Positions 8,190 to 62,024 of a stretch of 64,000 bases of DNA are shown here, one piece after another. Position numbers and translations under genes: made by a program. The notes under the pieces are model-generated. The model made no database searches. It saw nothing but the letters and a program-made list of their open reading frames with translations, and was not told the origin of the DNA. Source of the stretch: Dehalococcoidia bacterium (GTDB taxonomy: Bacteria > Chloroflexota > Dehalococcoidia > Lucifugimonadales > UBA3495); the NCBI GenBank assembly GCA_034428795.1, contig DAOUHF010000035.1, positions 131 to 64,130 on the forward strand, read 5' to 3'. Position 1 is the stretch's first letter; every line of letters begins with the position of its first letter.

Positions 8190-8520
8190 AGGGCCGGGAA
8201 GGGAGGCGGGCATACGGGCCCTACTCCGTCTCCCCGGCGAAAGCCGGGGTCCACGTCCCCTCCACGCTTCGGCCATCTCAGTAGTTGACCGCCGTCTGAA
8301 GTCGACGCGCTGTCCTTGGGGGTTGGGGAGCAGCGTAGGTTCCGGCTTTCGCCGGAATGACGGGTGAGGGGGGCGGCGTACGGGAAAGGAGGCGGCATAC
8401 GGGCACCGGGGAAGGGACGTGGGTTCCGGCTGTCGCCGGAAAGACGGGGGGGAGGCGGGCGGAATGACGGGAGGGGAGGCGGCATACGGGCGCCGGGGAA
8501 GCGACGTGGGCCGGCGGTCC
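8190..8520. repeat. Array of about 65-bp hairpin repeats in a 615-bp intergenic region
   Basis: Three to four related units of the form (g)gaagg(g)aggcgg(g)catacgggc...ggggaag(g/c)gacgtggg(t)tccggc-tNtc-gccggaa. Each carries a ttccggc/gccggaa palindrome. Confidence 0.7.
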
Positions 8521-16052: not shown

Positions 16053-16955
16053 CTAGCGCACTCTGACGTACTTGGTCGCTATGCCGGAAGACCCGCCGGC
16101 CATTGCTCCGCTTACCAGGTAGATATCGCCGCGGGCGTCCGGCCAAATCTGGTGGCTGCGCGGGGTGGTCCAACTGGCCAATATGTTGCTTGACTCATCC
16201 CGGACGGTCAGCAGGTTCCGCGCGGCCTCGTTGCTCTCCCGTTCCGCCAGGTAGTAATGGCCGTCCCGCCCAATATGGAAGTCGGTTGGGAGCTGGACGT
16301 TGCTCCACTGGGAGACGAACTCGCCTTCCAGATCGAATATCTGGATGCGGTTATTCTTCCGGTCGCAAACGTATACTAGCCCATCGTCGCTTACCCAGAG
16401 GCTGTGCGGCGAGAAGAACGCGCCGGGCCCGTCCCCGCCGGGCCGTCCCCACGAAGCTATCAACCGGCCATCGGAGGAAAACCGGTGCACCCGGCAATTG
16501 CGGTAGCCGTCGGAGGCGTACAGGTCTCCCGACGGCGACGGTGACAAGCGGGTTGGGCGGTTGAACGGGCCGCCAGCCCGTGGCACCACACCCTCGTCTT
16601 CAAAGCAACCGGTGTCGGACGGCTGGCCCCGGTTGCCTATTTCCAACAACACTTCCCCTTCTACCGAGAGCTTGAGCGCCACGTGGTCGCCCCGGTCGGC
16701 CAGGTAGATAACGTCGTCGGGCCCGATGTACATGGTATGCGGCTCAACGATGTAGCCTGTTCCCCACGAGTCCAGAAACCGGCCGTCACGGTCGAACACC
16801 AAGACCGGCGGGTCTTGTTGCTGCTGGCAGACGTAGACTCGTTCTTGGGAGTCCGCAACTACCCCTGTCACCACGCCGGGGCTCCACCCCTCAGGCAACG
16901 CCCCCCATGAGTCGTGGACGTCGAACCGAAGATCACCTGCTTCTATCGTCGCCAT
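16053..16955 (-). CDS. NHL-repeat six-bladed beta-propeller protein (amidating-lyase-like)
   Basis: Repeated YVCD/YLAD/YASD blade motifs. ATG 16955 is preferred over the track start GTG 16964. The start codon lies inside a 41-bp tandem repeat. Confidence 0.75.
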   Translation of the reverse strand: MATIEAGDLRFDVHDSWGALPEGWSPGVVTGVVADSQERVYVCQQQQDPPVLVFDRDGRFLDSWGTGYIVEPHTMYIGPDDVIYLADRGDHVALKLSVEGEVLLEIGNRGQPSDTGCFEDEGVVPRAGGPFNRPTRLSPSPSGDLYASDGYRNCRVHRFSSDGRLIASWGRPGGDGPGAFFSPHSLWVSDDGLVYVCDRKNNRIQIFDLEGEFVSQWSNVQLPTDFHIGRDGHYYLAERESNEAARNLLTVRDESSNILASWTTPRSHQIWPDARGDIYLVSGAMAGGSSGIATKYVRVR

Positions 16956-17084
16956 GGAAGTCACCCCCGTCCGATATAGGGTATCGTCGTCGCCATTGGA
17001 ATCACCCCCGTCCGATATAGGGCGTCTTCGTCGCCATGGAAATCACCCCCGTCCGATATAGGGCATCTTCGTCGCCATGATGGT
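16948..17084. repeat. 41-bp tandem repeat (3 copies plus a partial) spanning the SDR 3' end and the NHL gene start
   Basis: gtcgcc anchors at 16948, 16989, 17030 and 17071, an exact 41-bp period. On the minus strand each copy reads ATGGCGACGA..CCCTATATCGGACGGGGGTGA. Confidence 0.9.
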
Positions 17085-38465: not shown

Positions 38466-39224
38466 ATGACGCAGGAACTGGGACGAATAAACCGGCCCTC
38501 GGCCGCGCAGTACCAGGGGCGGAGAAAGCTATTGCTGGTCCCTCTGGTATACGGACCGCCGTCCGATGATCAGGAAGCCGCCGCCGTTCTGCAGAACTAC
38601 TGGGAGCAGGTGCAGACCCAGGTGGCGGCCTTGGAAACGGCCTTGGGGTCCCTACAACACATTTACCACGAGAGCCTGACCGTCGGCGGCGACGAGGGCC
38701 TGGAACAACTGGGGGCCACCGATCAACGCAGCCACCGGTTCATTCGTGACAAATGCGAGGCCGGGGCAGCACTCGAAGCCACGGAGGACCTGGACGCCCT
38801 GTTGGAAACCCTGGACCTGCAACGGTGCATGATGATTCCGCTGGCCAGCCCTGCGGTGGCCGCAAGGCTCCAGGAATGGTACGCGGAGAGCAACCGGCGG
38901 CGGTACGAGCACATCGCCGGCCGGATCGACGGCACCCTGGAGGAAGACGCGGTCGGCTTGCTGATGATCAGCGACCGCCACCAGGTGCAGTTCCCTGGCG
39001 ACATTGAGGTATTCTACGTCGCGCCGCCGGCCTTGGACGACTTCCGCCGGTGGATGCAAAACTGGCTGGCCCGCCAGCAGAACAGTCCACCGCCCGCCGG
39101 TTTCGAAGCCGGCGACGGCTATCCGGTCGACTCCGGCGACCCTCCCGACTCCGGCGACCCTCCCGACTCCGGCGACCCTCCCGACTCCGGCGACCCTCCC
39201 GACCCCGGCGACGAAGACCCCTAG
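38466..39224 (+). CDS. Hypothetical protein with a C-terminal (DSGDPP)n repeat
   Basis: 252 aa. An 18-bp in-frame tandem repeat (about 39127-39212) encodes DSGDPP four times plus a variant copy. The last base of the stop codon TAG (39222-39224) is also the first base of a MITE-like copy. Confidence 0.5.
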   Translation: MTQELGRINRPSAAQYQGRRKLLLVPLVYGPPSDDQEAAAVLQNYWEQVQTQVAALETALGSLQHIYHESLTVGGDEGLEQLGATDQRSHRFIRDKCEAGAALEATEDLDALLETLDLQRCMMIPLASPAVAARLQEWYAESNRRRYEHIAGRIDGTLEEDAVGLLMISDRHQVQFPGDIEVFYVAPPALDDFRRWMQNWLARQQNSPPPAGFEAGDGYPVDSGDPPDSGDPPDSGDPPDSGDPPDPGDEDP

Positions 39225-39435: not shown

Positions 39436-40611
39436 ATGGAACGGGAAGTATTCTTTTTCACCGAAATGGGCTACACCGACTATTCCCAGGACAAAGCCAG
39501 AGACCTCGGTTATAACAACCTGATGTTCCCCAACGAGTACTTCAGTCCCGAGAAGGCCAAAGACCTCTACGGCATGTATTTCGAAGAGTTGCAATACTGC
39601 ACCGAGGCGGGCTTCGACGGCGTCATGATCAACGAGCACCACAACAACCCGTTGTGCATGATGCCCTCCGTCAACGTCATCGGTTCGGTCCTGGCCAGCA
39701 CCACGACCAAGGGGAAGATAGTGTTTCTTGGCAACGTGCTGCCTATCCACGACAACCCCCTGAGGGTGGCCGAAGAAGTGGCTATGATCGACATCCTCTC
39801 CGGCGGCAGGGTGGTCTGCGGTTTCGTCCGGGGCATTGGGCAAGAGAGCATGGCCACCAACACCAACCCGGTTTACAACCGGGAGCGCTTCGACGAGGCG
39901 CACAACGTCATTGTTAAAGCATGGACCACTCCCGGCCCCTTCCGGTACGAGGGCAAGCACTACCACTACCGGGTGGTGAACCCCTGGGTGATGCCTTTGC
40001 AGAAACCACACCCACCCATCTGGATTCCCGGTGTCGCCTCCCCGGAATCCGTGATCTGGGCGGCCCGGCACAGATACCCCTACGTGGCTCTGGCACCTCC
40101 CTTGCAGTTGTTGTCCGACATCTTTGACCTGTACCAGAGAACGGCGGAGGAGGACGGTTGGACCCCCACCGCCGCCAACCGGGGCTACGCCGTGCGGGTA
40201 AACGTCGCCGACTCCGACGAGAAGGCCTACGAAGAAGGGAAGAACTTCTACTGGCAGTTGGGAACGTCGTTTGGGGTGACCCCCCAGCACTGGCTGGCCC
40301 CGCCCGGCTACCTGACTCGCGCCGCCGCCGGCGGCGCCCGGGAGCAGGCCCGGCGTGCCGTGCAGACCGTTGTTCCCGGCGGACCGGCCCTGCCCTACGA
40401 GGACGCCCAAGAGACCTGTCAGATTGTGACCGGGAACCCTGATACGGTGATCAAAAAGCTAAAGCGCCTGATCGACGTCATCGACCCCGGCTACCTCATC
40501 TTCTGGGGCCGGGAGGGCCCCATGTCCCACGACGTAGCCATGAGGAGCATCGACCTCATGGCCCAGGAAGTTATCCCCGCCGTCAAAGAGTACGAAGCGC
40601 AGCGGGAATGA
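39436..40611 (+). CDS. LLM-class flavin-dependent oxidoreductase
   Basis: 391 aa; FFFTEMGY...EAGFDGVMINEHH is a luciferase-like N-terminus. Confidence 0.85.
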   Translation: MEREVFFFTEMGYTDYSQDKARDLGYNNLMFPNEYFSPEKAKDLYGMYFEELQYCTEAGFDGVMINEHHNNPLCMMPSVNVIGSVLASTTTKGKIVFLGNVLPIHDNPLRVAEEVAMIDILSGGRVVCGFVRGIGQESMATNTNPVYNRERFDEAHNVIVKAWTTPGPFRYEGKHYHYRVVNPWVMPLQKPHPPIWIPGVASPESVIWAARHRYPYVALAPPLQLLSDIFDLYQRTAEEDGWTPTAANRGYAVRVNVADSDEKAYEEGKNFYWQLGTSFGVTPQHWLAPPGYLTRAAAGGAREQARRAVQTVVPGGPALPYEDAQETCQIVTGNPDTVIKKLKRLIDVIDPGYLIFWGREGPMSHDVAMRSIDLMAQEVIPAVKEYEAQRE

Positions 40612-40734
40612 GGGCGGCGACCGCCTACGACCCTTGTACGTGGCTGCGGCCGGGTCGCTCGGCTGCCCGTTCGTGACGGGGGACCGGAGGCCCAGCCGCG
40701 CCAATGGGCCGACCTGCGAGATAATAGCCTCACC

Positions 40735-40779
40735 GGAAACTTACGAACAGGAAACTTACGAACAGGAAACTTACGAACA
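40735..40779. repeat. Perfect 3 x 15-bp tandem repeat immediately 5' of the RBS
   Basis: ggaaacttacgaaca three times, followed by ggagcaacc and ATG 40789. Confidence 0.9.
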
Positions 40780-40788
40780 GGAGCAACC

Positions 40789-41286
40789 ATGCCAGAGAAG
40801 CTGCAACAAGGCGACCGCATTCCGAACGTCGTGCTGAATTTGCTGGACGGCGGCACACTGACCCTGCCGGACGACGCCCCCAGCCGCTACACCGCGATCT
40901 TGTTCTACCGGGGGCACTGGTGACCCTACTGCCTGCGGCAGTTGGCCGCTTGGGAGGAAGCCAAGGCCGGGTTGGACGAGCTCGGGCTCACCATCATCGC
41001 CGTCAGCGCCGACAGCCGGGAGCAGGCCCAGGAAGTGAAGGACAAGGGTCTCAGCTTCCCGGTGGCATATGGCGCCACTAAAGAAGATGGCGACCGGATC
41101 GGCGCGTGGTGGTCCGACGACCGCGGCGGGTACATCCAACCGTCGGAGTTCCTGCTTGGCCGGGGCGGGGTGGTGTTGGGAGCGATGTACGCGTCGGGCC
41201 CCATCGGACGCATGGCCCCGGAGGAAGCGACCCGGGCCATAAAAACCAGGGAGAACCGGCGGCGCGAAGAGGAAGGACATTCTTGA
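40789..41286 (+). CDS. Peroxiredoxin-like (PRX_like2 / AhpC-TSA redoxin) protein; candidate selenoprotein with TGA at 40921-40923 read as Sec
   Basis: ATG 40789 with a GGAG RBS. The reading frame continues through the in-frame TGA: ...YTAILFYRGHW-[TGA]-PYCLRQLAAW...IIAVSAD... The TGA replaces the first Cys of the conserved FYRGxWCPxC motif. Both halves are in the same frame and look like one redoxin domain. Confidence 0.6.
40946..40970 (+). promoter_or_regulatory. Candidate bacterial SECIS-like hairpin
   Basis: Upper stem cuugg/ccaag with apical loop GAGGAAG (40954-40960), plus a 3-bp lower stem, 26-50 nt after the UGA. A second small hairpin, acugcc-ugc-ggcagu, lies at 40928-40942. Folded by eye only. 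Confidence 0.3.
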
Positions 41287-42098
41287 CCACCAACCGGCAG
41301 CTCGTCGATATGATGGCGCACGTCTGGCGTTCAATCGACGGCCTGTGCTCCTCGCTCAGCGAACCGGAATGGAAGACCCCCACCGACTGCCCCGGCTGGA
41401 CGGTACAGGACCAGGTCGCCCATCTGGGCGGCGCGGAGTCCCGGATACTGGGCAACCCCGCCCCCGGCCACACTCCGGGCGAGACCGGCCACGTCAAGAG
41501 CGAAGGCGGGTTGAGCAACGAAGTGTTGGTCGACTGGCGCAGGTCCTGGACCGGCCGGCAGGTCCTCGACGAGTTCCGGGAGCTCACCGGGCAACGGGTA
41601 ACCGCGCTGCGTTCGATGACCGGCGAAGAGTTCGCGGCCGAGACCCAAACCCCATTGGGCCCGGCCCCGGTCTCGGAGTTCATCAGCATCCGGATCATGG
41701 ACGCCTGGGTGCACGAGCAGGACATGCGTCGAGCGCTGGGGCGTCCGGGCGAGATGGAGGGACCGGCGGCGGCGCACTCGTTGGGCCGGATCATTCGCGC
41801 CATGCCCTTCGTGGTGGCGCGGCGGGCCCAGGCGCCGGACGGCGCAACCGTGGTCTTCGACATTGCGGGTCCCGCCGGCCGGGTCTTGCCGGTGTTGGTC
41901 GAGGGCAATCGGGGCAGAGAGGCCGAAGAGGCTCCTGCCGAACCCATGGTCCGAATAAGCCTCGACACCGAGACTTTCGGCTGTTTGGGCTGCGGCCGTT
42001 GGGACCCCGAGGAGATGCTGCGGTCCGGCAGGGCGCTGGTCCAGGGAGACGTTGCCCTCGGCGAGGCCATCGTCCGCCAGATGAACATTATGCCTTGA
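41283..42098 (+). CDS. DinB-fold / maleylpyruvate-isomerase-family (mycothiol-dependent, TIGR03083-like) protein
   Basis: WKTPTDCPGWTVQDQVAHLGG is the hallmark motif. TTG 41283 overlaps the upstream stop; ATG 41310 is an alternative start. Confidence 0.7.
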   Translation: MTTNRQLVDMMAHVWRSIDGLCSSLSEPEWKTPTDCPGWTVQDQVAHLGGAESRILGNPAPGHTPGETGHVKSEGGLSNEVLVDWRRSWTGRQVLDEFRELTGQRVTALRSMTGEEFAAETQTPLGPAPVSEFISIRIMDAWVHEQDMRRALGRPGEMEGPAAAHSLGRIIRAMPFVVARRAQAPDGATVVFDIAGPAGRVLPVLVEGNRGREAEEAPAEPMVRISLDTETFGCLGCGRWDPEEMLRSGRALVQGDVALGEAIVRQMNIMP

Positions 42099-47700: not shown

Positions 47701-47811
47701 CCGGTGGGCGGCCCGGCCGCGGCCTTGCCGATGATGCGGTCGCACGGAAGTCTTTGTTCGCAACATGAACCATGAGGTTGACCAGCGCAAGATGAACGAG
47801 ACCTGCCAGGA

Positions 47812-48441
47812 ATGATGCCCCGAGGTAAAATGCTGCCATTGATGATGGCAGGGGGAATCGTAACCGTCATCATCGGGTTCATCCTGGTAGTGCTGTTCAT
47901 TTCGTGGTTTTCCAACCCGCCATTCGGTTTGGGCAACGCCGGCGCTCAACCAATTGCCTTCCCCCACTCGGTCCACGTGGCGGAAAACAACATTCAGTGC
48001 GAATTCTGTCACCGCAACGTGACCCGCGGAGCGGCGGCTACCGTACCCGCCGTGGAGATGTGCGTCTTTTGTCACAAGGACATCGACGGGGATACGGAAA
48101 CAGCCCAGGCCGAGATCAACAAGGTCCGGCAGAGTTTCGAGCAAGGGGAGCCCATTAACTGGGAACGAGTGCACCGGATGCCCGACCACGTGCGGTTCAT
48201 CCACGAAGCCCACATCCGGTTCTTTACCAGCAACGATCTGGAGGCGCCCCGTTTCGACATCGACGGCGACGAGGTCACCCGGGCCCTGGATGTCCAGGAG
48301 ACCTGCGCCATCTGCCACGGCGATATTCCGAATGCCGAGGTCGTCAAGCCCAAGGCGGGCCAGTCTCTCAAAATGGGCACCTGCCTCGACTGCCACCGCG
48401 TGAACAACGTCCCTACGGATTGCACGATCTGCCACAAGTGA
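47812..48441 (+). CDS. actA: Alternative Complex III pentahaem cytochrome c subunit
   Basis: N-terminal TM anchor and five CxxCH motifs (CEFCH, CVFCH, CAICH, CLDCH, CTICH). Confidence 0.85.
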   Translation: MMPRGKMLPLMMAGGIVTVIIGFILVVLFISWFSNPPFGLGNAGAQPIAFPHSVHVAENNIQCEFCHRNVTRGAAATVPAVEMCVFCHKDIDGDTETAQAEINKVRQSFEQGEPINWERVHRMPDHVRFIHEAHIRFFTSNDLEAPRFDIDGDEVTRALDVQETCAICHGDIPNAEVVKPKAGQSLKMGTCLDCHRVNNVPTDCTICHK

Positions 48442-48469
48442 AATTGCTGGACTAGAAATTGCTGGACTA

Positions 48470-50803
48470 ATGAAGCTTACTCGTAGAAATTTCTTGACTT
48501 GGGCCGGACTATCGGCAATGGGCGCCGTCGCCTGTGAGGGCTTCGGCATACGCGAAGGCGAGCTCGACATCCAGAGCCCGGTCAGCCTTCCCGAGGACCT
48601 GGTTAGGGGGAAGGACAACTGGTACGCGAGCCTGTGCCGCAATTGCCCTTCCTGCGAGGGGATCGTGGTACGGGTGATGGAGGGCAGGGCCAAAAAGATA
48701 CAGGGCAATCCCTACTATCCGACCAACCAGGGAAAGAGCCACGCCCGGTGCGAGGCCGGCCTGCAATCGCTGTACCATCCCGACCGGGTGCCCGCTCCAA
48801 TGGTGCGCAGCGGCGCCCGGGGCTCCGGCCAGTACACTCCCATCAATTGGCAGCCGGAAGCCATGGACCGTCTGCGGTCCGAGCTGGCCGCCAGGGCCCC
48901 CCAATCGGTTATTATCACCGAGCCTCTGCGGGGTCACATGGGCCTGCTGGTGGGCCGGTTCGCGGAGGCCATCGGCAGCGAGCACCTGGGATTCGAGGCC
49001 GTCGACAACAACACGTACCGGACCGCGGTCAAGAACGTTTACGATCAGGACCTTCTGCCCGATTTCGATGTGGAAAACACGAATTTCCTGTTGTCCTTCG
49101 GCGCGGATTTCCTCTCGACCTGGGTCTCACCGACCCGCTGGAACCGGGGTTACGGGGAATTTCGCCAAGGGCACGGCCGGGCCTCCTCCGGTCTGAAACG
49201 AGGGACCCTTTATCAGGTCGATTCCCGCTTCTCCATGACCGCGGCCAATGCCGACAAATGGGTCCCCATAAGGCCGGGATGGGATGGCCAACTGGCCATG
49301 AGCCTGGCCCAGGTAATCGTCTCGGAAGGACTGCAGGCCCCTGGCGTCGACACCGATGCCCTGCTGGGCGGGGAATCGGGGCGCCAGTTGCTGGAAAACT
49401 TCCGGCCCGAGGTCACGGCTCCCCTCATCGGCCTGACGCGGGAAAGAGCGGGCGGCGACCCTGTCGAGTTCATTAAACGCCTCGCCCGGGAGTTCGCCGG
49501 GAACCACCCCAGTCTGGCCATAGGCGGAGGCTCCGCCGGGGCCAGCAATAACGGCTTGTTCAACCTGGAAGCCATATACGCCCTTAACCACCTCGTCGGC
49601 AGCGTAGGGGTCCAGGGAGGGGTGAAATTCAATCCCGGCAGTCCTTGGGATGACGTACCCGCCGGGTCGCGCCCAGGCGGCCTGGAAGACTGGTCCCGGA
49701 TCGCCGACCAGATACGAAGCGGCGAAACGCGGCTGTTGATGCTCCATAACGCCGATCCGGTTCACGGCACGCCCGATTCACTGCGGCTGTATGACGCCAT
49801 CACCCAAGCCGACGACCTGGTCGTAGTCAGCTTCTCGCCGTTCTTCGACGACACCAGCGGCTTGGCCGACCTGGTCCTGCCCGACCGGGTCTACCTGGAG
49901 GATTGGGGAGACGATATCCCCGAACCGGGGCCCGGCTACCAGGTGGTCGGCTTTCAACAGCCGGTGGTCAACCCGTTGTACGACCTGGACCCCCGGAGCT
50001 TCCCGGACATACTCCTCACGATGGGACTGGAATTGGGCAGAGAGTCCCTGCTCCCCTGGCCGGACTACGGCGCCATGTTGAGGGACGCTTCCGACGAGCT
50101 ATTCGAAATGGGCCGCGGCTCCGTAACGGCAGCCGACGCCGAAGAGTTCTGGACGGCCCTGCTCCAACGCGGCGGCTGGTGGGACGAAGCCGCGACCGGA
50201 CCATCCCCGGCCTCGCCCCAAGCCGGGCTGTTGAGGCGCATTGTGGAGGCGGCATCCAACCCGGAATACTCCGGCGTCGGCGAAGGGGCCGGCAACTACC
50301 ACCTGGTTCCCTTCTCTCACAACACCCTGCAGGATGGCGTTCACGCCCACCTGCCCTGGCTGCAGGCCGCGCCCGACCCGCTTAGCACGGTGACCTGGCA
50401 GACCTGGGTGGAGATGCACGACGTCACCGCCGCCGCCCTGGGCGTCCGCGAGGGAGACATCGTTCGGATCGAATCGTCGCGGGAATCCATCCGCGCCGTG
50501 GTCTACCCGACCCCGGCGGTCCCTCCCGACGTGATCTCGATGCCCTTTGGCGGAGGCCGCCGGCAGGGCTCGCCCTATGCCACCGACAGGCTGGGCATCG
50601 AAAGCTCCAACGTCATGGACGTTCTGGAACCCGTCCGGGTTACGGGCACCGGGTCACTGGCCTGGGCGGCCACCCGGGTGCGGGTGACTAGTACCGGAGA
50701 AAGCGTTAATATCTCCAAGTTGGAAGGCAACGTCAGGGCCGTGGAGATCGGCATCACCCCGGCGGAAGAAATTATCAAGACGATCCACCCGGACAACGTC
50801 TAG
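48470..50803 (+). CDS. actB: ACIII molybdopterin-oxidoreductase-like subunit (ActB1 part, unfused)
   Basis: Tat signal RRNFLTWAGLSAMGAVA and an N-terminal Cys cluster (CRNCPSC...C). 777 aa with the fold of the Mo-bisPGD family. Confidence 0.8.
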   Translation: MKLTRRNFLTWAGLSAMGAVACEGFGIREGELDIQSPVSLPEDLVRGKDNWYASLCRNCPSCEGIVVRVMEGRAKKIQGNPYYPTNQGKSHARCEAGLQSLYHPDRVPAPMVRSGARGSGQYTPINWQPEAMDRLRSELAARAPQSVIITEPLRGHMGLLVGRFAEAIGSEHLGFEAVDNNTYRTAVKNVYDQDLLPDFDVENTNFLLSFGADFLSTWVSPTRWNRGYGEFRQGHGRASSGLKRGTLYQVDSRFSMTAANADKWVPIRPGWDGQLAMSLAQVIVSEGLQAPGVDTDALLGGESGRQLLENFRPEVTAPLIGLTRERAGGDPVEFIKRLAREFAGNHPSLAIGGGSAGASNNGLFNLEAIYALNHLVGSVGVQGGVKFNPGSPWDDVPAGSRPGGLEDWSRIADQIRSGETRLLMLHNADPVHGTPDSLRLYDAITQADDLVVVSFSPFFDDTSGLADLVLPDRVYLEDWGDDIPEPGPGYQVVGFQQPVVNPLYDLDPRSFPDILLTMGLELGRESLLPWPDYGAMLRDASDELFEMGRGSVTAADAEEFWTALLQRGGWWDEAATGPSPASPQAGLLRRIVEAASNPEYSGVGEGAGNYHLVPFSHNTLQDGVHAHLPWLQAAPDPLSTVTWQTWVEMHDVTAAALGVREGDIVRIESSRESIRAVVYPTPAVPPDVISMPFGGGRRQGSPYATDRLGIESSNVMDVLEPVRVTGTGSLAWAATRVRVTSTGESVNISKLEGNVRAVEIGITPAEEIIKTIHPDNV

Positions 50804-50872
50804 CCTGCCGGGCGGTCGATTAATGTCCACCCAGGCTGAGTTATAGGCTGAGTTAGAGGAATAGGCTGATAG

Positions 50873-51706
50873 ATGGTAACTAACCGGACTAACCACAAGT
50901 GGGGAATGGTTGTCGACCTGGACCGGTGCACCGGCTGCCAGTCGTGCGTCGTCGCCTGTCAAGCGGAGAACAACCTGCCCATCAACACCAAAGAGTTCTT
51001 CCAGCAACGGCGGGCTTACGAATGGATCCGCATCGAGCGTTACTGGGAGGGAGACTTCCCTGACGTAAAGGCCCGGTTCATACCTATCATGTGCCAGCAC
51101 TGCGAGAACGCGCCGTGCGAACCGGTGTGCCCCGTCTACGCCACCTACCACAACGACGAGGGCATGAACGTCCAGGTCTACAACCGGTGCGTCGGCACCA
51201 GGTACTGCGCCAACAACTGTCCTTACCAGGTGCGGTTTTTCAACTGGTGGGAGCCGACTTGGCCGGACCGCCTCAGGAACCACCTGAACCCGGACGTCAC
51301 CGTCCGCAGCCGGGGCTTGATGGAGCGTTGCTCCTTCTGCGTACAGCGCGTCCGCCGGGGTGAGATCAGGGTGGAACGCCAAGGCCGGGAGCCCCTGAGC
51401 GGTGAAAGGATCGAACCGTCGGACCGTTACCTCAACTACCAGCGGATGAAGGAAGGGAATTTCCTGCCGGCCTGTGTTCAGGCCTGCCCTACCAACGCGT
51501 TGATGTTCGGCGACCAGATGGATGACACCGGCCCGGTCTACGAACATTTCCGCGAGGCCAACGAACAGTACGACGCCCGGCATCACGGAGAGCACGTCGA
51601 CGAAGAGCACACCCGGGTGTACCGGTTGCTGGAAGAGATGGCTACGAAGCCCAACGTGATCTACCTGAAGAAGGTGGAAAAGTTCCCCGTCGGCGGCAAC
51701 GGCTGA
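50873..51706 (+). CDS. actB: ACIII 4Fe-4S ferredoxin subunit (ActB2 part, separate gene)
   Basis: CTGCQSCVVAC, CQHCENAPCEPVCP, CVGTRYCANNCPY and CVQACP cluster motifs. Confidence 0.85.
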   Translation: MVTNRTNHKWGMVVDLDRCTGCQSCVVACQAENNLPINTKEFFQQRRAYEWIRIERYWEGDFPDVKARFIPIMCQHCENAPCEPVCPVYATYHNDEGMNVQVYNRCVGTRYCANNCPYQVRFFNWWEPTWPDRLRNHLNPDVTVRSRGLMERCSFCVQRVRRGEIRVERQGREPLSGERIEPSDRYLNYQRMKEGNFLPACVQACPTNALMFGDQMDDTGPVYEHFREANEQYDARHHGEHVDEEHTRVYRLLEEMATKPNVIYLKKVEKFPVGGNG

Positions 51707-51710
51707 AAGC

Positions 51711-53177
51711 ATGGCAGCAACCGACAACGAACATCTGCACCACGGTGCAGTTCACGACGAGAGCCACGGGGGTATCTCCGGCGGCCACCACCCCGGCATG
51801 TGGGTTTTCCCCGACCCCCGGGTGATGACCCGCGACATGGCCGGCAAGATTGCCGCCATGCCGGCGATCTTCGTCATCCCCTTCATCCTCTCGTTCATCC
51901 TGCTGGCGTTGGGGGTGATAGGGTTCGTGGCCCGGGCAATCGGCGACGGATTCGACGACCGGGGGGCATGGGGCTACTACATGGCCTCCTTCTCCTTCGT
52001 TTTCATGGTGACCAGCGCCGCGCCGATCGCCGCCATCGCCTTCCGGTTCACCAAGAGCCACTGGCGGCGGCCCATGTCCCGGTTGTCGGAGTTGTTCGCG
52101 GTGGTCGGCATCTTCAACGTGATCGCCTTCATCCCCATGATGTTCGTGCTGCCGCCCATCGCCAATCCCGGCGGACACGTCGAGCACCAGTTGGACGTCC
52201 GCAGGACCATATGGTTCGAGGGTCCCATCGGCGCGCCACATGCCTGGGACCTGCTCGGAGTGGTCTTCCTGGCGGTGACCGCGTTGGTCATCTTGTGGAT
52301 TTCCGCAATGCCTGACATGGCGGAGGGCCGGGTCACGGCCACCGGCATCCGGCGTTGGATCTACCGGAGGCTGGCGGGCCACTGGTACGGCACCAAGCGG
52401 CAATGGAACGCTCAGAAGGCGGGCCTTGCCATGCTGGGCGCGTTCTACTTCATGCTCCTGATCTACGTGCACTTCATCATCAGTTCCGACTACGCCCAGA
52501 GCATGATTCCGGGTTGGAAGGACTCCATTTTCCCCGTCTTCTACAGCCTCACCGGCCTTCAGGTGGCCTTGGGGGTGGTCCTGGTCATCATGTACATCCT
52601 CCGCCGGTGGGGAGGCTACCAGGAATACCTGGGACGTTCGCCCTTCTGGTCGGCCAGCAAGGTGCAATTGGGACTGACCCTGCTCTGGGCCTACCACCTG
52701 TTCGCATTCTTCATCACCTACTGGTACGGCCGGTTGGTAGTGGAGCAGAACATCATCAAATATCTGTTCGTTCAGTCCTACGGGGGGGTGTTCGTCGCCA
52801 ACCTGATGCTGAGCTTCGTAATCCCCTTCGCCATTCTGCTTTGGAACCCGTTCCGCCGCAGTGCCTGGGGACCGGCGCTGGCGGGGCTCTCGGCGGCGGC
52901 GGGGGCGCTGATGTTCAACATCCGTGTCTTCGTCGGTGCGTCCAACTCGGGCGACATCTACGCCCATTTTTTGAATACGGTGCCCCCGGCGGTGTACCCT
53001 GACATTTTCGACATCTTCCTGGTTGTCGGCGGCATCGGCGGAGCTGTGTTCTTCTACATGCTGGCCACCAAGCTGTTGCCGGTAATGTCGGTCTGGGAAG
53101 TGAAGGAAGGCGCGTTGTACCAGCGCATGGGACGGTTCATGCGCGGCGAATACCTGGTCTTGGCCAAGCCGGAGTAA
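51711..53177 (+). CDS. actC: ACIII NrfD/PsrC-like quinol-interacting membrane subunit
   Basis: 488 aa, about 10 TM segments, position after the Fe-S subunit. Confidence 0.8.
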   Translation: MAATDNEHLHHGAVHDESHGGISGGHHPGMWVFPDPRVMTRDMAGKIAAMPAIFVIPFILSFILLALGVIGFVARAIGDGFDDRGAWGYYMASFSFVFMVTSAAPIAAIAFRFTKSHWRRPMSRLSELFAVVGIFNVIAFIPMMFVLPPIANPGGHVEHQLDVRRTIWFEGPIGAPHAWDLLGVVFLAVTALVILWISAMPDMAEGRVTATGIRRWIYRRLAGHWYGTKRQWNAQKAGLAMLGAFYFMLLIYVHFIISSDYAQSMIPGWKDSIFPVFYSLTGLQVALGVVLVIMYILRRWGGYQEYLGRSPFWSASKVQLGLTLLWAYHLFAFFITYWYGRLVVEQNIIKYLFVQSYGGVFVANLMLSFVIPFAILLWNPFRRSAWGPALAGLSAAAGALMFNIRVFVGASNSGDIYAHFLNTVPPAVYPDIFDIFLVVGGIGGAVFFYMLATKLLPVMSVWEVKEGALYQRMGRFMRGEYLVLAKPE

Positions 53178-53272
53178 GCGATTACGAATTAAGCAATACG
53201 AATTGAGAGTCGGGAAAATACCGATTCGCAATTCGTAACTGCTGATTCGTAATTGAAATTAGCGGAGCATCG

Positions 53273-54667
53273 ATGCAGGAAGGTAGGCCGCTAGCGGCCA
53301 GACAAATTAACGGAGAGCTACTGCGGTCGATCCTGAACTCGCCGAAGTGGTTCCCCATTACGGTGACCATCCTGGCCCTCATTGTGCTGGGAGGGTTCAG
53401 CGCGGCGGGTCTGCTGGTCAACAAGGGCTTCGGTGTAACGGGCCTGAACCGTCCGGTGATGTGGGGCTTCTTCATCACCAACTTCGTCTTCTGGATCGGC
53501 ATCAGCCACGCCGGGGTGATGCTCTCCGCCATCCTGCGCCTGTCCAAGGCCGAATGGCGCCGTCCGGCCACCAGGGCCGCCGAGATTTTGACGGTCTTCT
53601 CCCTGATGACGGCAATGATGATGCCGCTGATTCACACCGGGCGTCCCTGGCGCACGATTTATTGGATTTACACCATCCCCTTCGCACCCTACGACTACGC
53701 CCGGGGCATCTGGCCCAACGTGCGTTCCCCGCTGGTCTGGGACCCCAGCGCGGTCTACACTTACCTGACCTCCAGCATCCTGTTCGTGCTTGTCGCCCTG
53801 ATCCCCGACTTCGCGGTGCTCCGGGACCGCACCACCGGCCTCAACAGCCGGATTTACGGGTTGCTGGCCATGGGCTGGCAGGGAAACCCCCGCCAGTGGA
53901 AGCTGCAGATTATCGCCGGGGTGCTGCTGTCGGCGCTGATCCTGCCGGTGTTCGTCTCAGTGCACAGTATCGTCTCCTGGGACTTCGGTATGGCGGTGTC
54001 GGTCAAGTCGTGGCACTCCACCATCTTCGCCCCATATTTCGTGGTGGGCGCGGTGCACTCCGGCGTCTCCGCCGTAGCCTTCGTGATGATCATCCTGCGC
54101 TATATCTACGGCTGGCAGAATTACATTCGCCACGAGCATATCGACGCCTTGGGACGGCTGCTCATCGTGGTGGCGACCGGATGGTTCTACTTCTTCGTGA
54201 TGGAAGTCATCTTCGGCTTCTACGGGAGAGAGGCTGACGAAATCGCCGTCCGCGACCTCCAGTTCTTACAAACCCCCTGGAACATCTGGATGATGGTGTT
54301 CGTATTCGCCACCTACTTCCTGCCTGTGGCCCTGTGGCTGCCCCGGATGTTCCGGCGGAACCTGTGGATAATGTCGACGGCCTGCATCTCTGTAAACATC
54401 GGGATGTGGCTGGAGCGATTTATCATCATCGTGCCCGGCCTCCAGAACAAACAGGTGTTCACTTTTTCCTGGTACTCGGTCTATGCCCCCAGCGCGGTGG
54501 AGTGGACCATCATCGGCGCCACGTTCGCGCTGGTTTCCATTTTGATGCTGGTTATCGCCCGCGTGGCGCCGCTGATACCTCTGTACGACGTCAAGGAGGC
54601 TGAGATCCTCCGCACCGATATCAAGATCGGCCGGGTGACCATTCCGGCGGTAGTTAGAGAGGACTAG
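53273..54667 (+). CDS. actF: Second NrfD-like membrane subunit of ACIII (ActF-type)
   Basis: 464 aa. Polytopic NrfD-like membrane protein with architecture parallel to the preceding ActC gene, located before actD. Confidence 0.75.
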   Translation: MQEGRPLAARQINGELLRSILNSPKWFPITVTILALIVLGGFSAAGLLVNKGFGVTGLNRPVMWGFFITNFVFWIGISHAGVMLSAILRLSKAEWRRPATRAAEILTVFSLMTAMMMPLIHTGRPWRTIYWIYTIPFAPYDYARGIWPNVRSPLVWDPSAVYTYLTSSILFVLVALIPDFAVLRDRTTGLNSRIYGLLAMGWQGNPRQWKLQIIAGVLLSALILPVFVSVHSIVSWDFGMAVSVKSWHSTIFAPYFVVGAVHSGVSAVAFVMIILRYIYGWQNYIRHEHIDALGRLLIVVATGWFYFFVMEVIFGFYGREADEIAVRDLQFLQTPWNIWMMVFVFATYFLPVALWLPRMFRRNLWIMSTACISVNIGMWLERFIIIVPGLQNKQVFTFSWYSVYAPSAVEWTIIGATFALVSILMLVIARVAPLIPLYDVKEAEILRTDIKIGRVTIPAVVRED

Positions 54668-54697
54668 GCTTAACTATGTATTTCGAGGGAACGGGAA

Positions 54698-55216
54698 ATG
54701 GCTAAACGACCCATCCTGGGGCTGTTTGAAGATGCCAATTACGCCGCCGAGGCCGGCGACGCCCTGCAAAGGGCTGGCATCGAACCCACCGAGTACGACT
54801 TCCTGACCGACGCTCCTTACCCCGAGGGGGCGTTCGGCGAGAGGCACGAAGCTCATCGCCTCTATATCTTCCCGCTGTGCGGGGCCTTGGTGGGGCTGAC
54901 CATCGGCATCCTGCTGACGTCGATGACACAGATGGCCTACCCGTTGGTTCAGGCCGGCAAGCCCATCTTGTCCCTGCCGCCCATGGCCGTGGTCACCTAC
55001 GAGAGCACGATGCTCACGGCCATTATCTTCACCATTATCGGGATTATCTTCGAGTCGAGGTTGCCCAGCTTCAAGAAGGGACTCTACGACACCCGGATCA
55101 CCGAGGGGTACATCGGGGTACTGGTGAACGCCGAGGAGGAGCAGCACACCCAGTTGGCGGGCCTGCTCACCCAGGCCGGGGCGATAGACGTGGTGCGGGA
55201 AAGCGGGAGCCGGTAG
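54698..55216 (+). CDS. actD: ACIII membrane subunit ActD (DUF3341)
   Basis: 172 aa. GLFEDANYAAEAGDALQRAGI at the N-terminus, then two TM helices. Confidence 0.75.
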   Translation: MAKRPILGLFEDANYAAEAGDALQRAGIEPTEYDFLTDAPYPEGAFGERHEAHRLYIFPLCGALVGLTIGILLTSMTQMAYPLVQAGKPILSLPPMAVVTYESTMLTAIIFTIIGIIFESRLPSFKKGLYDTRITEGYIGVLVNAEEEQHTQLAGLLTQAGAIDVVRESGSR

Positions 55217-55220
55217 ACCA

Positions 55221-55769
55221 GTGCCAGTCATACAGCAAGCCAAAGCGATATCCTGGTTGCCCCGGGGCGGACGCCGCCAACCGTGTCGTTTGAAGGCCCT
55301 GCTACTGGGGCTGGGTCTGCTGGCCGCGCTGGCGGCCTCAGGCTGCACCTCGGGCGCCTACCCGGTGGACATCTTCTACGAGATGCACTACCAGCAATCG
55401 TACAAGTCTCACGAGCCGCCGCGGCTGGGCGGGGTGGAAAACGCGGTCGCTTTCTTCCCGGGACCGGTGTCCACCATGGGGGACACCGGCAATTCCGGCC
55501 CGCACCTGTTCAAGGTGAACTGCCAGATGTGCCACGGCGCGGGCGCCAAGGGCGACGGGCCGGTGCTGACCAAGCTGATCAACGAATACGGTTATCAAAC
55601 GTTGATAACCCCCGACCTTACCACCTTGGAGCCCGAGGCCATTGAGCCGTTCTTGCGCAACACGACGCGCCCCTTCGGGCCGACGTCGGTGATGCCGCCC
55701 TTCGGCAAGCTGCTCAGCTCCGAAGAGCGATGGGCCATTGCGGAGTACGTCGGCACCCTTCCCAAGTAG
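55221..55769 (+). CDS. actE: ACIII monohaem cytochrome c lipoprotein
   Basis: Lipobox LAASGC, a single CQMCHG haem motif and a distal Met (VMPPF). GTG start. Confidence 0.8.
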   Translation: MPVIQQAKAISWLPRGGRRQPCRLKALLLGLGLLAALAASGCTSGAYPVDIFYEMHYQQSYKSHEPPRLGGVENAVAFFPGPVSTMGDTGNSGPHLFKVNCQMCHGAGAKGDGPVLTKLINEYGYQTLITPDLTTLEPEAIEPFLRNTTRPFGPTSVMPPFGKLLSSEERWAIAEYVGTLPK

Positions 55770-55854
55770 GGTGTTTCTTGATTGGGTGAAATCCAACCCA
55801 CGCAGTGACGACTCCCACCCTCGGCTTTGTTCCAAAATCCTCATTCCTGAGCCG

Positions 55855-56653: not shown

Positions 56654-57262
56654 ATGCCAGGTTGGGTCATGGCCCGCACTCCTTCCCGAACTCCTTCCCG
56701 AGCTCCTTCGGTGAAGTCTTGGACCGCCGTGTTGGTCGGCCTTTTCGCCTGCCTGCTCATCGCCTCACCCGCTTCCGCCCAGTCCCCGTATTCCGAGAAA
56801 GAGGCCCAGGCCATCGACCGGATGTTGATGTGTCCGGTCTGCCCGGCCGAAACCATCGACCAGGCACAGGTCGAAATCTCCTTCCAGATGCGGGCGGTGG
56901 TGCGGGAGATGCTGGCAGAGGGCCGCTCCCGGCAGGAAATCCTGGACTTCTTTGTCGAGCGCTACGGCCCGGATATCTTGGCGGCTCCTCCCAAGTCAGG
57001 CGCAAACCTTCTGGCATGGGTTCTGCCCATCGCCGGTGTGGCTGCCGGGCTGGTGGGCGCTTATTTTGTCATACGCTCCATGACCGCCCGTAACCGCGGC
57101 CGCGGGACTCCGGGGAACAGTCCCGTCGCCGGCCATGATCCTCATCTGGGGCCCTACCTGGAAATGGTGGACCGGCGGCTGGCGGCAGAACGCATCTCCG
57201 GAGCAACTACGGCCCGCCGGCCCTCGGTTGCCCCAGGGGACGAAGAGTCTGATGCCCTGTAA
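56654..57262 (+). CDS. ccmH: Cytochrome c-type biogenesis protein CcmH/NrfF-like
   Basis: Signal peptide, then CPVCPAETIDQ (CxxC haem-handling motif), the ERYGPDILAAPP motif and a C-terminal TM helix. Start is ATG 56654 or 56669; the track start at 56495 lies inside the mobile element. Confidence 0.8.
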   Translation: MPGWVMARTPSRTPSRAPSVKSWTAVLVGLFACLLIASPASAQSPYSEKEAQAIDRMLMCPVCPAETIDQAQVEISFQMRAVVREMLAEGRSRQEILDFFVERYGPDILAAPPKSGANLLAWVLPIAGVAAGLVGAYFVIRSMTARNRGRGTPGNSPVAGHDPHLGPYLEMVDRRLAAERISGATTARRPSVAPGDEESDAL

Positions 57263-57271
57263 GGGTTCAAA

Positions 57272-57396
57272 GGCCGAAGTGTCCAATTGCCGAAGGGGTC
57301 GATGGCCGAAGTGTCAAATGGCCGAAGTGTTCAATTGCCGAAGGGGTCGATGGCTGAAGTGTCTAATGGCTGAAGTGTCTAATGGGTGAAGTAGGC
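57272..57396. repeat. 16-bp-unit tandem repeat array running into the ccmF start codon
   Basis: ggc(c/t)gaagtgt(c/t)NaaT units, alternating with a 16-bp insert (tgccgaaggggtcgat). The last, degenerate unit (gggtgaagtaggcgcc) carries the G of the ccmF ATG and its first five codons. Confidence 0.85.
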
Positions 57397-61882: not shown

Positions 61883-61916
61883 CGACCCATCCGGACCGCG
61901 TTATTCTATCTTTCAA

Positions 61917-62024
61917 GGCCCGGATTTCAGGCCCGGATTTCAGGCCCGGATTTCAGGCCCGGACTTCAGGCCCGGACTTCAGGCCCGGATTTCAGGCCCG
62001 GATTTCAGGCCCGAATTTTCCGGG
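61917..62024. repeat. 13-bp tandem repeat, 7 copies plus a partial
   Basis: ggcccgga(t/c)ttca repeated. Copies 4-5 carry c, the others t. Confidence 0.9.

What the first reader, a model, noticed from the sequence alone, without database searches (positions are those of the whole stretch)
40789..41286. In-frame TGA at the first Cys of a redoxin CxxC motif: candidate selenocysteine-containing Prx-like protein
SEEN: From ATG 40789 the frame reads MPEKLQQGDRIPNVVLNLLDGGTLTLPDDAPSRYTAILFYRGHW-TGA-PYCLRQLAAWEEAKAGLDELGLTIIAVSADSREQAQEVKDKGLSFPVAYG... The TGA (40921-40923) is exactly 44 codons from the ATG, and the downstream track ORF (40942-41286) is in the same frame. The codon falls where PRX_like2 / AhpC-TSA redoxins have FYRGxWCPxC. 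Two hairpins follow the TGA, at 40928-40942 and 40946-40970; the second has a G-rich apical loop about 33-39 nt downstream. ESTABLISHED: Prx-like, thioredoxin-like and AhpD-like UxxC proteins are recurrent bacterial selenoprotein families. Bacterial SECIS elements are hairpins immediately 3' of the UGA. TGA is used as an ordinary stop by many other genes in this window, so global recoding is unlikely. INFERENCE: This is a selenoprotein, not a pseudogene.
Basis: partly seen in the sequence, partly recalled or inferred. Interest (0 to 1): 0.7.

Follow-up and report, generated by a model that had tools for sequence, protein, structure and literature searches.

The report
Selenocysteine Prx-like redox protein gene
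The in-frame TGA is almost certainly a real selenocysteine codon in a small thioredoxin-fold redox protein of a SAR202-type Dehalococcoidia bacterium, but this selenoprotein family has been described since 2004-2008, so the gene is an ordinary, mis-annotated member of a known family.

Summary
ATG 40789, in-frame TGA 40921-40923 (codon 45) and stop 41284-41286 give one 165-residue AhpC/TSA-Redoxin protein whose CxxC motif reads U-P-Y-C. The selenoprotein reading is strongly supported. Of 80 related species, 53 have TGA at this codon and 27 have TGC/TGT. Every TGA form keeps a start codon 43-44 codons upstream and has no other in-frame stop. Both halves are under purifying selection (dN/dS 0.22 and 0.27). 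A hairpin at 40935-40949 (GCGGC-AGUUG-GCCGC) meets all four published bacterial SECIS criteria, shows compensatory changes and is absent from the Cys forms. Eleven genomes with the TGA form carry a tRNA-Sec gene. The window's own genome could not be searched for selA, selB, selC or selD. The family is known: 'Prx-like thiol:disulfide oxidoreductase', called 'Prx-like 1' in the GOS survey, whose dataset holds reads 46% identical with the same FYRGHWUPYC motif. Dehalococcoidia MAGs are already listed among the most selenoprotein-rich bacteria. Public records split this gene into 44-aa and 114-aa ORFs. Low novelty; a correct call.

The parts
40789..41286 (+). Full coding sequence of the Prx-like UxxC selenoprotein: 165 residues, Sec at position 45, stop TGA 41284-41286
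   Evidence: The same architecture is present in all 53 TGA-form loci. dN/dS is 0.22 before and 0.27 after the TGA.
40780..40783 (+). Shine-Dalgarno-like GGAG, 5 nt upstream of the ATG
   Evidence: Read directly from the sequence. L001 and L002 have the same AGGAGCAAC(C/T)ATG. Its function is inferred.
40921..40923 (+). Sec-encoding UGA, the first position of the U-P-Y-C redox motif
   Evidence: At this codon 53 loci have TGA, 20 have TGC and 7 have TGT. It aligns with the first Cys of the WCxxC motif of ResA. In the model of a Cys homologue it lies at the N-cap of helix 46-57.
40930..40932 (+). TGC codon for Cys48, the second (resolving) residue of the UxxC motif
   Evidence: Invariant in the protein alignment (C48); its first two bases (T10, G11) are invariant in the DNA alignment, the third being C or T.
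40935..40949 (+). SECIS-like upper stem-loop: stem GCGGC (40935-40939) with GCCGC (40945-40949), apical loop AGUUG (40940-40944)
   Evidence: It meets the four bSECIS constraints (criteria from PMC13188914). Compensatory changes occur at 4 of the 6 upper-stem pairs. It is absent from the Cys forms. Synonymous sites are conserved at +15 to +27.
40929..40956 (+). Extended SECIS helix including the weaker lower stem: C9-G36, U10-A35, C12-G33 and C13-G32, numbered from the U of UGA as 1
   Evidence: Energy is -15.1 kcal/mol for the whole helix against -15.3 for the unconstrained fold. Lower-stem pairs are kept in only about 40-95% of sequences, depending on the pair, so this part is less certain.
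41283..42098 (+). Downstream gene of the MDMPI_N/DinB_2 (TIGR03083) family. Its TTG start overlaps the Prx stop as TTGA, so it is probably co-transcribed.
   Evidence: Pfam and NCBIfam matches. The gene abuts or follows the Prx gene in L001, L002, L003 and L063, and lies about 100 nt downstream in L005-L007, L012 and L024. The operon link and the choice of TTG as start are inferred.

Best explanation
The region 40789-41286 is one gene for a 165-residue peroxiredoxin-fold thiol:disulfide oxidoreductase whose active-site motif is U-P-Y-C. During translation, the UGA at 40921 is read as selenocysteine. A hairpin 11 nt downstream of the UGA (stem 40935-40939 with 40945-40949, loop AGUUG) is presumed to recruit SelB carrying Sec-tRNA(Sec) to the ribosome in competition with release factor 2. 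In the protein, Sec45 sits at the N-terminal cap of the first helix of the thioredoxin fold. There it would act as the exposed nucleophile, forming a selenenylsulfide with Cys48 or with a substrate thiol. The protein lacks the Pro and Thr of the PxxxTxxC peroxidase motif (Arg and Sec occupy those positions), so a CxxC-type disulfide reductase or isomerase activity is more likely than classical peroxidase activity. Shown here: conservation of the UGA, integrity of and selection on both halves of the frame, the covarying hairpin, the fold, and tRNA-Sec genes in related genomes that carry the same gene. Inferred: SelB binding, actual selenium insertion, the catalytic roles of the two residues, the substrate, and co-transcription with the downstream DinB/MDMPI gene.
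For: (1): the codon is TGA in 53 of 80 related loci (one genome per species) and TGC/TGT in the other 27. TGA forms occur in Dehalococcoidia/SAR202 and also in Gamma- and Alphaproteobacteria and Myxococcota MAGs. (2): all 53 TGA forms have a start codon 44 codons upstream (43 in one), no other in-frame stop, and 111-122 codons downstream. (3): median pairwise dN/dS is 0.22 for the 44 codons before the TGA (595 pairs) and 0.27 for the 40 codons after it (982 pairs). (4): one AhpC-TSA/Redoxin domain spans the TGA. (5): third-codon positions +15 to +27 carry 1.15-1.6 bits in the TGA forms, against 0.2-0.5 bits at most of the upstream third positions in the same sequences and 0.06-0.63 bits in the Cys forms. 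(6): the hairpin pairs in 78.6% of cells, 0 of 500 shuffles reach this, and slid controls give 28-54%. Pair types are 14-30 CG25/GC9/GU4/UA1, 15-29 GC34/CG7, and 18-26 and 19-25 also change on both sides; the same columns in the Cys forms pair in 47.2% of cells, no better than the slid controls. (7) with criteria: loop 5 nt, upper stem 5 bp, G at loop position 2 followed by U, 16 nt between UGA and loop, and -9.4 kcal/mol (upper stem) or -15.1 kcal/mol (full helix). The loop is AGUUG in 47 of 54 sequences. [quoted passage not shown] (10): GOS 'Prx-like 1' selenoprotein reads share FYRGHWUPYC...IQPSEF...PIGRM and are 46% identical (E 6e-42). (11): the model (pLDDT 92.9) has a Prx fold, with TM about 0.8 to Bcp4, Bcp1, BcpB and AhpE.
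Against: The window's own genome could not be searched. No selA, selB, selD or tRNA-Sec lies in the 64 kb window. The four closest relatives (L001, L002, L003, L063) were not among the 120 rows of the truncated tRNA-Sec scan. In the window itself, the first pair of the 6-bp stem is a U-U mismatch. The unconstrained fold prefers competing hairpins by 0.2 kcal/mol, and the region folds no better than shuffled sequence. The UGA-to-loop spacing of 16 nt is at the lower limit of the model. Much of the hairpin conservation comes from closely related SAR202 sequences, so the shuffle statistics overstate independence. Five divergent TGA forms (L043, L047, L048, L049, L061) do not form the hairpin in this register. 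No experimental evidence for selenium insertion exists for this family, which the reviews list as 'predicted with high confidence', not verified.
Confidence: 0.9

Rival explanations
1. The TGA is a nonsense mutation and the gene is a decaying pseudogene.
For: Gene callers stop at the TGA. Public records-aa and 114-aa pieces, and most database entries are C-terminal fragments of 113-119 aa.
Against: The TGA is at the same codon in 53 species down to 47% protein identity. No second stop or frameshift occurs in any of them. dN/dS is 0.22 upstream and 0.27 downstream of the TGA. Cys orthologues have the codon exactly at the catalytic position.
Confidence: 0.01
2. There are two separate genes, as annotated in public records: a 44-residue peptide ending at the TGA and a 114-residue protein starting at TTG 40942.
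For: List of ORFs and the gene calls in GCA_964513815.1 (L083).
Against: A single Pfam domain spans residues 8-129. The split would cut the CxxC motif and remove strands beta1-beta3 of the fold. The spacing from start codon to TGA is fixed at 43-44 codons in all 53 species. No Shine-Dalgarno-like sequence precedes TTG 40942, which lies inside the conserved hairpin.
Confidence: 0.02
3. The UGA is read through, but with a standard amino acid (Trp or Cys from a near-cognate tRNA) rather than selenocysteine, or it serves mainly as a selenium-dependent attenuator that usually terminates.
For: Sec insertion was not measured. Recoding is reported as only 30-40% efficient in E. coli (abstract of PMC4513850), so a truncated product is expected some of the time. 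One contig has TCA (Ser) at the site with the hairpin sequence intact.
Against: A SECIS-type hairpin at the canonical distance covaries with the TGA and is absent from the Cys forms. tRNA-Sec genes are present in genomes that carry the gene. TGA ends 25 of 53 reading frames in the window, so general readthrough is unlikely. Sec/Cys pairs at a redox-active position are the hallmark of true selenoproteins.
Confidence: 0.05
4. The TGA is a sequencing or assembly error for TGC or TGT.
For: None specific.
Against: Two independent records carrying this locus, both read here, have the same sequence and the same split gene calls (L083 and L084). 53 other species also have TGA.
Confidence: 0.005

Closest known systems
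Prx-like thiol:disulfide oxidoreductase selenoprotein (pfam00578, UxxC/UxxU), called 'Prx-like 1' in the GOS selenoproteome (Kryukov & Gladyshev 2004; Zhang & Gladyshev 2008, PMC2398784)
   Same: Same Pfam domain, same UxxC motif with Sec first, and the same sequence blocks (FYRGHWUPYCRR.L, IQPSEF, GPIGRM). It is 46% identical (E 6e-42) to the published read JCVI_READ_1161201. Many Cys homologues exist (2,740 Cys against 225 Sec in GOS).
   Different: The host is a high-GC SAR202-type Dehalococcoidia rather than the organisms behind the GOS reads, which were not identified here. The SECIS loop AGUUG is nearly invariant in this lineage. The gene is linked to a DinB/MDMPI gene in its subclade. 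I saw no published function or experimental verification for any member.
Canonical selenocysteine peroxiredoxin (Prx, TxxU; PrxU of Eubacterium acidaminophilum)
   Same: Peroxiredoxin-type thioredoxin fold, and a selenoprotein.
   Different: In Prx/PrxU the Sec replaces the peroxidatic Cys of PxxxTxxC. Here Sec occupies the Thr position, Arg occupies the Pro position, and the peroxidatic position stays Cys. The NCBIfam PrxU model scores 20.8 bits against a cutoff of 270.
ResA/TlpA-type CxxC thiol-disulfide oxidoreductases (PDB 4nmu, 3c71)
   Same: Closest solved structures by sequence (E 5e-7). The WCxxC motif aligns with WUPYC, with Sec at the N-terminal, nucleophilic Cys position.
   Different: About 25-30% identity over the N-terminal 95 residues only. 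ResA proteins are membrane-anchored and extracytoplasmic. This protein shows no N-terminal hydrophobic segment in its sequence, and it has a C-terminal charged helix.
E. coli fdhF/fdnG SECIS elements and the bSECIS consensus model
   Same: A hairpin inside the coding sequence that starts about 11 nt after the UGA, with a small apical loop carrying G-U and a GC-rich upper stem. All four model constraints are met.
   Different: The loop sequence AGUUG and stem sequences differ from the E. coli elements as I recall them (E. coli SECIS sequences were not retrieved or compared here). No bulged U can be assigned. Binding by the SAR202 SelB is untested.

Membership tests
Bacterial selenoprotein gene (Sec-UGA recoding) | The in-frame UGA aligns with Cys in homologues at a functional residue | tested here: met
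   53 TGA, 20 TGC and 7 TGT at the first position of the CxxC motif.
Bacterial selenoprotein gene (Sec-UGA recoding) | Coding sequence is conserved and under purifying selection on both sides of the UGA | tested here: met
   Intact frames in all 53 TGA forms. dN/dS is 0.22 upstream and 0.27 downstream. The Pfam domain spans the UGA.
Bacterial selenoprotein gene (Sec-UGA recoding) | bSECIS: 3-9 nt apical loop on a 4-16 bp upper stem | tested here: met
   The loop is AGUUG (5 nt). The stem is 5 bp in the window and 6-8 bp in most relatives.
Bacterial selenoprotein gene (Sec-UGA recoding) | bSECIS: G in the first two loop positions, usually followed by G or U | tested here: met
   G at loop position 2 followed by U. 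51 of 54 sequences have the G.
Bacterial selenoprotein gene (Sec-UGA recoding) | bSECIS: 16-37 nt between the UGA and the apical loop; MFE of -7.5 kcal/mol or lower | tested here: met
   The spacing is 16 nt, at the lower limit. The energy is -9.4 kcal/mol for the upper stem and -15.1 kcal/mol for the full helix. 52 of 54 sequences reach -7.5 kcal/mol.
Bacterial selenoprotein gene (Sec-UGA recoding) | The hairpin is maintained by compensatory changes and is specific to the UGA forms | tested here: met
   Caveat: many of the sequences are closely related.
Bacterial selenoprotein gene (Sec-UGA recoding) | tRNA-Sec (selC) in the same genome | tested here: inconclusive
tRNA-Sec is present in 11 other genomes that carry the TGA form. 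The four closest relatives were not in the truncated scan.
Bacterial selenoprotein gene (Sec-UGA recoding) | selA, selB and selD in the same genome | not testable with these tools
   None in the window or in about 1.4 Mb of related DNA held. The literature lists Dehalococcoidia MAGs as possessing the pathway. A Dehalococcoidia-like SelD that is itself Sec-containing was found in L090.
Bacterial selenoprotein gene (Sec-UGA recoding) | Selenium is actually incorporated at the UGA | not testable with these tools
   This needs 75Se labelling or mass spectrometry.
Prx-like thiol:disulfide oxidoreductase selenoprotein (pfam00578, UxxC) | AhpC-TSA (PF00578) domain above the curated cutoff | tested here: met
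   59.7 bits against a cutoff of 26.
Prx-like thiol:disulfide oxidoreductase selenoprotein (pfam00578, UxxC) | UxxC motif with Sec as the first residue | tested here: met
   W-U-P-Y-C.
Prx-like thiol:disulfide oxidoreductase selenoprotein (pfam00578, UxxC) | Sequence similarity to published members | tested here: met
   46% identity (E 6e-42) to a GOS 'Prx-like 1' read. The motif WUPYC occurs 67 times in that dataset.
Canonical peroxiredoxin / PrxU | PxxxTxxC(U) active-site motif | tested here: not met
   The sequence is R-G-H-W-U-P-Y-C. Arg is at the Pro position and Sec at the Thr position.
Canonical peroxiredoxin / PrxU | NCBIfam equivalog NF040737 (PrxU) reaches its cutoff | tested here: not met
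   20.8 bits against 270.
SelL-related redox protein (NF040769) | The NCBIfam model reaches its cutoff | tested here: not met
   20.7 bits against 120.
   No CDD library was available. The 2026 review lists a cd02970 selenoprotein with UxxS, not UxxC.

The most novel reading that the evidence does not exclude
The UxxC selenoprotein is the dedicated redox partner of the overlapping DinB/MDMPI-family thiol-dependent enzyme, and perhaps of the upstream luciferase-like monooxygenase. Together they would form a selenium-dependent module in SAR202's oxidation of recalcitrant organic matter. That would give a first physiological role to a widespread but functionally uncharacterised selenoprotein family.
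Probability: 0.1. Interest if true: 0.4.

Novelty: new member of a known kind. Interest (0 to 1): 0.2.

Why it matters
The practical value is in annotation. The gene is split into two meaningless ORFs in public records, and most of its relatives in protein databases are truncated fragments or carry a false Trp at the Sec site. As a result, the selenoproteome of SAR202/Dehalococcoidia is under-counted by standard pipelines. SAR202 is an abundant marine and sponge-associated lineage. The finding also adds to evidence that this lineage uses selenium widely. It does not change what is known about Sec decoding or about this protein family, whose biochemical function remains unknown.

Tried and rejected
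(1) Rfam and ARAGORN found no tRNA or RNA family in the window.

(2) tblastn with E. coli SelA, SelB and SelD found nothing in the window, the 80 Prx loci or the SAR202 tRNA-Sec loci.

(3) A GC-rich back-translation of the SelD motif TDVTGFG found 120 genuine SelD genes, but none was from a SAR202-type MAG.

(4) A protein-database search with a Chloroflexota SelD (from L090) returned only Dehalococcoidales-type SelDs, none on my contigs. So selD, selA and selB remain unlocated in the relevant genomes.

(5) Supplements of BSepDB and of the tRNA paper are not held, so I could not check whether the related MAGs are listed there.

His first hairpin is rejected as the SECIS because its loop lies only 10 nt after the UGA and it shows mostly one-sided variation.

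(7) The idea that the intergenic stretch 40612-40788 is a PIN/VapC remnant got no Pfam support and was dropped.

(8) A search for other in-frame TGA candidates in the window found none that were convincing.

(9) The Sec-form and Cys-form genomes could not be compared for presence or absence of tRNA-Sec, because the scans were cut at 120 rows.

Full report
**Observation.** An ATG at 40789 opens a frame that reads 44 sense codons, then TGA at 40921-40923, then 120 more sense codons to the stop TGA at 41284-41286. The peptide around the internal TGA is FYRGHW-*-PYCLRQL. With Cys put in for the stop, Pfam AhpC-TSA (E 3.5e-16, 59.7 bits, cutoff 26) and Redoxin (E 9e-14) match residues 8-129, straight across the TGA. 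The window has 62.8% G+C, and real genes have G+C at third codon positions (GC3) of about 0.7-0.88. 25 of 53 such frames end in TGA, so TGA is a normal stop in this organism. A scan of every in-frame TGA for coding-type GC3 on both sides found only this one with a strong signal (0.88 and 0.93) together with a redox motif.

**Comparative test of the codon.** A scan of one genome per species returned 80 related loci. At the aligned codon, 53 have TGA, 20 have TGC and 7 have TGT.
- The TGA forms are mostly Dehalococcoidia/SAR202 MAGs at 59-93% protein identity to the window. They also include Gamma- and Alphaproteobacteria and a Myxococcota MAG at 47-50% identity.
- The Cys forms include Ktedonobacter, Actinoallomurus, Gemmatimonadota and some Dehalococcoidia.
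- All 53 TGA forms keep a start codon 44 codons upstream (43 in one), no other in-frame stop, and 111-122 codons downstream.
- Median pairwise dN/dS is 0.22 for the 44 codons before the TGA and 0.27 for the 40 codons after it.

These results rule out a pseudogene, a sequencing error and the two-gene annotation. In the protein database most relatives appear as fragments of 113-119 aa. Some JGI entries show Trp at the site, and in the one I checked the DNA has TGA. The public record GCA_964513815.1 calls this very gene as a 44-aa piece and a 114-aa piece.

**The SECIS element.** Folding all 54 TGA-form sequences showed a different, recurring hairpin at a fixed register.
- Numbering from the U of UGA as 1, the stem pairs columns 14-19 with 25-30, and the 5-nt loop at 20-24 reads AGUUG in 47 of 54 sequences.
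- In the window this is GCGGC (40935-40939), AGUUG (40940-40944) and GCCGC (40945-40949). The outermost pair is a U-U mismatch.
- On the alignment, the 12-pair structure (upper stem plus the lower stem, columns 8-13 with 32-37) pairs in 78.6% of cells. None of 500 shuffles reaches that, and slid controls give 28-54%.
- Four of the six upper-stem pairs show changes on both sides. Examples are 14-30 with CG 25, GC 9, GU 4 and UA 1, and 15-29 with GC 34 and CG 7.
- The same columns in the 27 Cys forms pair in 47.2% of cells, no better than their slid controls.
- Third-codon positions +15 to +27 carry 1.15-1.6 bits of conservation in the TGA forms. Most upstream third positions in the same sequences carry 0.2-0.5 bits, and the same positions in the Cys forms carry 0.06-0.63 bits.

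His first pairs in 91% but varies mostly on one side only, has its loop 10 nt after the UGA, and competes with the conserved stem.

The published bSECIS model (PMC13188914) sets four constraints: a 3-9 nt loop on a 4-16 bp upper stem, a G in the first two loop positions, 16-37 nt from UGA to loop, and an MFE of -7.5 kcal/mol or lower. The window's hairpin has a 5-nt loop, a 5-bp stem, G at loop position 2 followed by U, a 16-nt spacing, and -9.4 kcal/mol for the upper stem or -15.1 kcal/mol with the lower stem.

Caveats: many of the sequences are closely related, the spacing is at the lower limit, the unconstrained fold of the window is 0.2 kcal/mol better, and five divergent TGA forms do not fit this register.

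**Sec machinery.** The window holds no tRNA, no Rfam family and no selA, selB or selD. The rest of its genome could not be read, so I looked in relatives.
- A scan for the near-universal SelD motif TDVTGFG found 120 genuine SelD genes. One is a Sec-containing SelD in Chloroflexi bacterium RBG_16_60_22. None came from SAR202-type MAGs, and a protein search seeded with that SelD stayed within Dehalococcoidales-type sequences.
- A generic tRNA-Sec pattern then found two Dehalococcoidia MAGs of the same UUID-named series as my loci.
- Their shared and distinctive 3' end, GGTTCGACTCCCTCGCACTCCC, matched only those two among 108 tRNA-Sec genes already held. I used it for the last genome scan.
ARAGORN calls a tRNA-Sec with anticodon TCA in 110 of the 120 loci.
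- Eleven of these lie on the same contig, assembly or isolate as a TGA-form Prx locus: L004, L005, L011, L017, L020, L021, L026, L031, L034, L039 and L072.
- The scan also hit Dehalococcoidia bacterium UBA1141 and isolate 10f4566d. [quoted passage not shown] It lists these two MAGs with 49 and 46 selenoprotein genes, placing them among the ten richest bacteria.
- The window's four closest relatives (L001, L002, L003, L063) were not in the truncated sample.

So machinery in this exact genome is inferred, not shown.

**What the protein is.**
- By sequence, the closest solved structures are ResA-type thiol-disulfide oxidoreductases (4nmu, E 5e-7). The Sec aligns with the first Cys of their WCxxC motif.
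- An AlphaFold model of a genuine Cys-form homologue (P0007, 57% identical to the window protein) is confident, with pLDDT 92.9 and pTM 0.88. It has a peroxiredoxin-type thioredoxin fold, and the residue at the Sec position lies at the N-cap of helix 46-57.
- The best structural matches are BCP/PrxQ proteins, AhpC2 and AhpE, with TM about 0.8 at roughly 20% identity.
- The PxxxTxxC peroxidase motif is not present. Arg replaces Pro, Sec replaces Thr, and the peroxidatic position keeps Cys.
- The curated NCBIfam models for PrxU and for SelL-related proteins are far below their cutoffs.

The most likely chemistry is that of a CxxC-type oxidoreductase, with Sec45 as the attacking residue and Cys48 as the resolving residue. 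This is inference from the fold and the motif.

**Context.** The genes in order are a luciferase-like monooxygenase (39436-40611), this gene, an MDMPI_N/DinB_2 (TIGR03083) gene, an MFS transporter and an HpaB-type hydroxylase. The TTG start of the MDMPI/DinB gene overlaps the Prx stop as TTGA (41283-42098). The order is kept in the four closest relatives. The DinB/MDMPI gene follows the Prx gene in nine related loci of the FYRGHW subclade, but not in the larger FYRGVW clade. A functional link is possible but unproven.

[quoted passage not shown] The GOS study counts 225 'Prx-like 1' selenoproteins and 2,740 Cys homologues. Its Dataset S1 contains reads with FYRGHWUPYCRR(Q/L)L, IQPSEF and PIGRM, and one of them is 46% identical to the window protein (E 6e-42). 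So this is the same subfamily in a different host. No paper in the library combines SAR202 with 'selenoprotein', but BSepDB already covers Dehalococcoidia MAGs of this kind.

**Verdict.** The finding is a new, mis-annotated member of a known selenoprotein family. Confidence that the UGA encodes selenocysteine is 0.9. Interest is 0.2.

Noticed in passing
window 40735-40782: A perfect 15-nt tandem repeat (GGAAACTTACGAACA, 3.2 copies) lies immediately upstream of the Shine-Dalgarno sequence and ATG of the selenoprotein gene. L001 and L002 have a single diverged copy at that position, so it is a recent expansion specific to this lineage. Each unit ends in an AGGA-like sequence. Any effect on translation or regulation is unknown.
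   Followed up: partly
window 40928-40942: A competing hairpin (ACUGCC/GGCAGU with a 3-nt loop) is mutually exclusive with the SECIS stem. It pairs in 91% of cells across the TGA forms, mostly through one-sided changes. It could be a by-product of the Y-C...R-Q-L codons or an alternative conformer. This was not resolved.
   Followed up: partly
L319, L364, L369, L382, L388, L389, L409, L411, L412, L422, L377: Ten SAR202/Dehalococcoidia-type loci hold only the 3' half of tRNA-Sec, about 55-60 nt from the anticodon loop to CCA, joined to unrelated 5' sequence. Some of these MAGs also have a complete selC (for example L325 full with L319 and L389 partial; L333 with L422; L352 with L382). L377 has a full gene plus a second copy with a foreign 5' half 1.9 kb away. 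This looks like att-site duplication from mobile elements integrated at selC.
   Followed up: partly
L090:1245-2288: The SelD of Chloroflexi bacterium RBG_16_60_22 is itself a selenoprotein (HGAG-TGA-ACKIGP). Most of its closest database relatives are N-terminally truncated, at 304-328 aa, as would happen if they were Sec forms cut short by gene callers.
   Followed up: partly
L436:162-656; L437:203-205: JGI protein entries for this family show Trp at the Sec site. In the one I checked, the DNA has TGA, probably translated under code 4. One ENA contig has TCA (Ser) at the site with the SECIS-like sequence GCGGCAGTTGGCCGC still intact, so it is either a very recent substitution or a read error.
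   Followed up: yes
L083:11491-11988 (GCA_964513815.1, CAZEOV010000060.1): The public record that carries this same locus annotates the selenoprotein gene as two ORFs of 114 aa and 44 aa, with no Pfam hit recorded for either.
   Followed up: yes
window 47800-55800: A gene cluster for a molybdopterin oxidoreductase (48470-50803), a 4Fe-4S protein (50873-51706), an NrfD-type membrane subunit (53273-54667) and, from the related records, a multihaem cytochrome and an ActD-like protein. It resembles an alternative complex III or a related Mo/W oxidoreductase module. No in-frame TGA was seen in the catalytic subunit.
   Followed up: no
window 57261-57385, 61911-62018, 16946-17079, 8334-8510, 39128-39212: The window has many short tandem repeats, most of them apparently between genes: 16/32/48-nt units (2.5-7.4 copies, depending on the period), a 13-nt unit x8.2, a 41-nt unit x3.3 and an 87-nt unit x2.1. 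An in-frame 18-nt x4.7 repeat lies inside the unannotated ORF 38466-39224.
   Followed up: no
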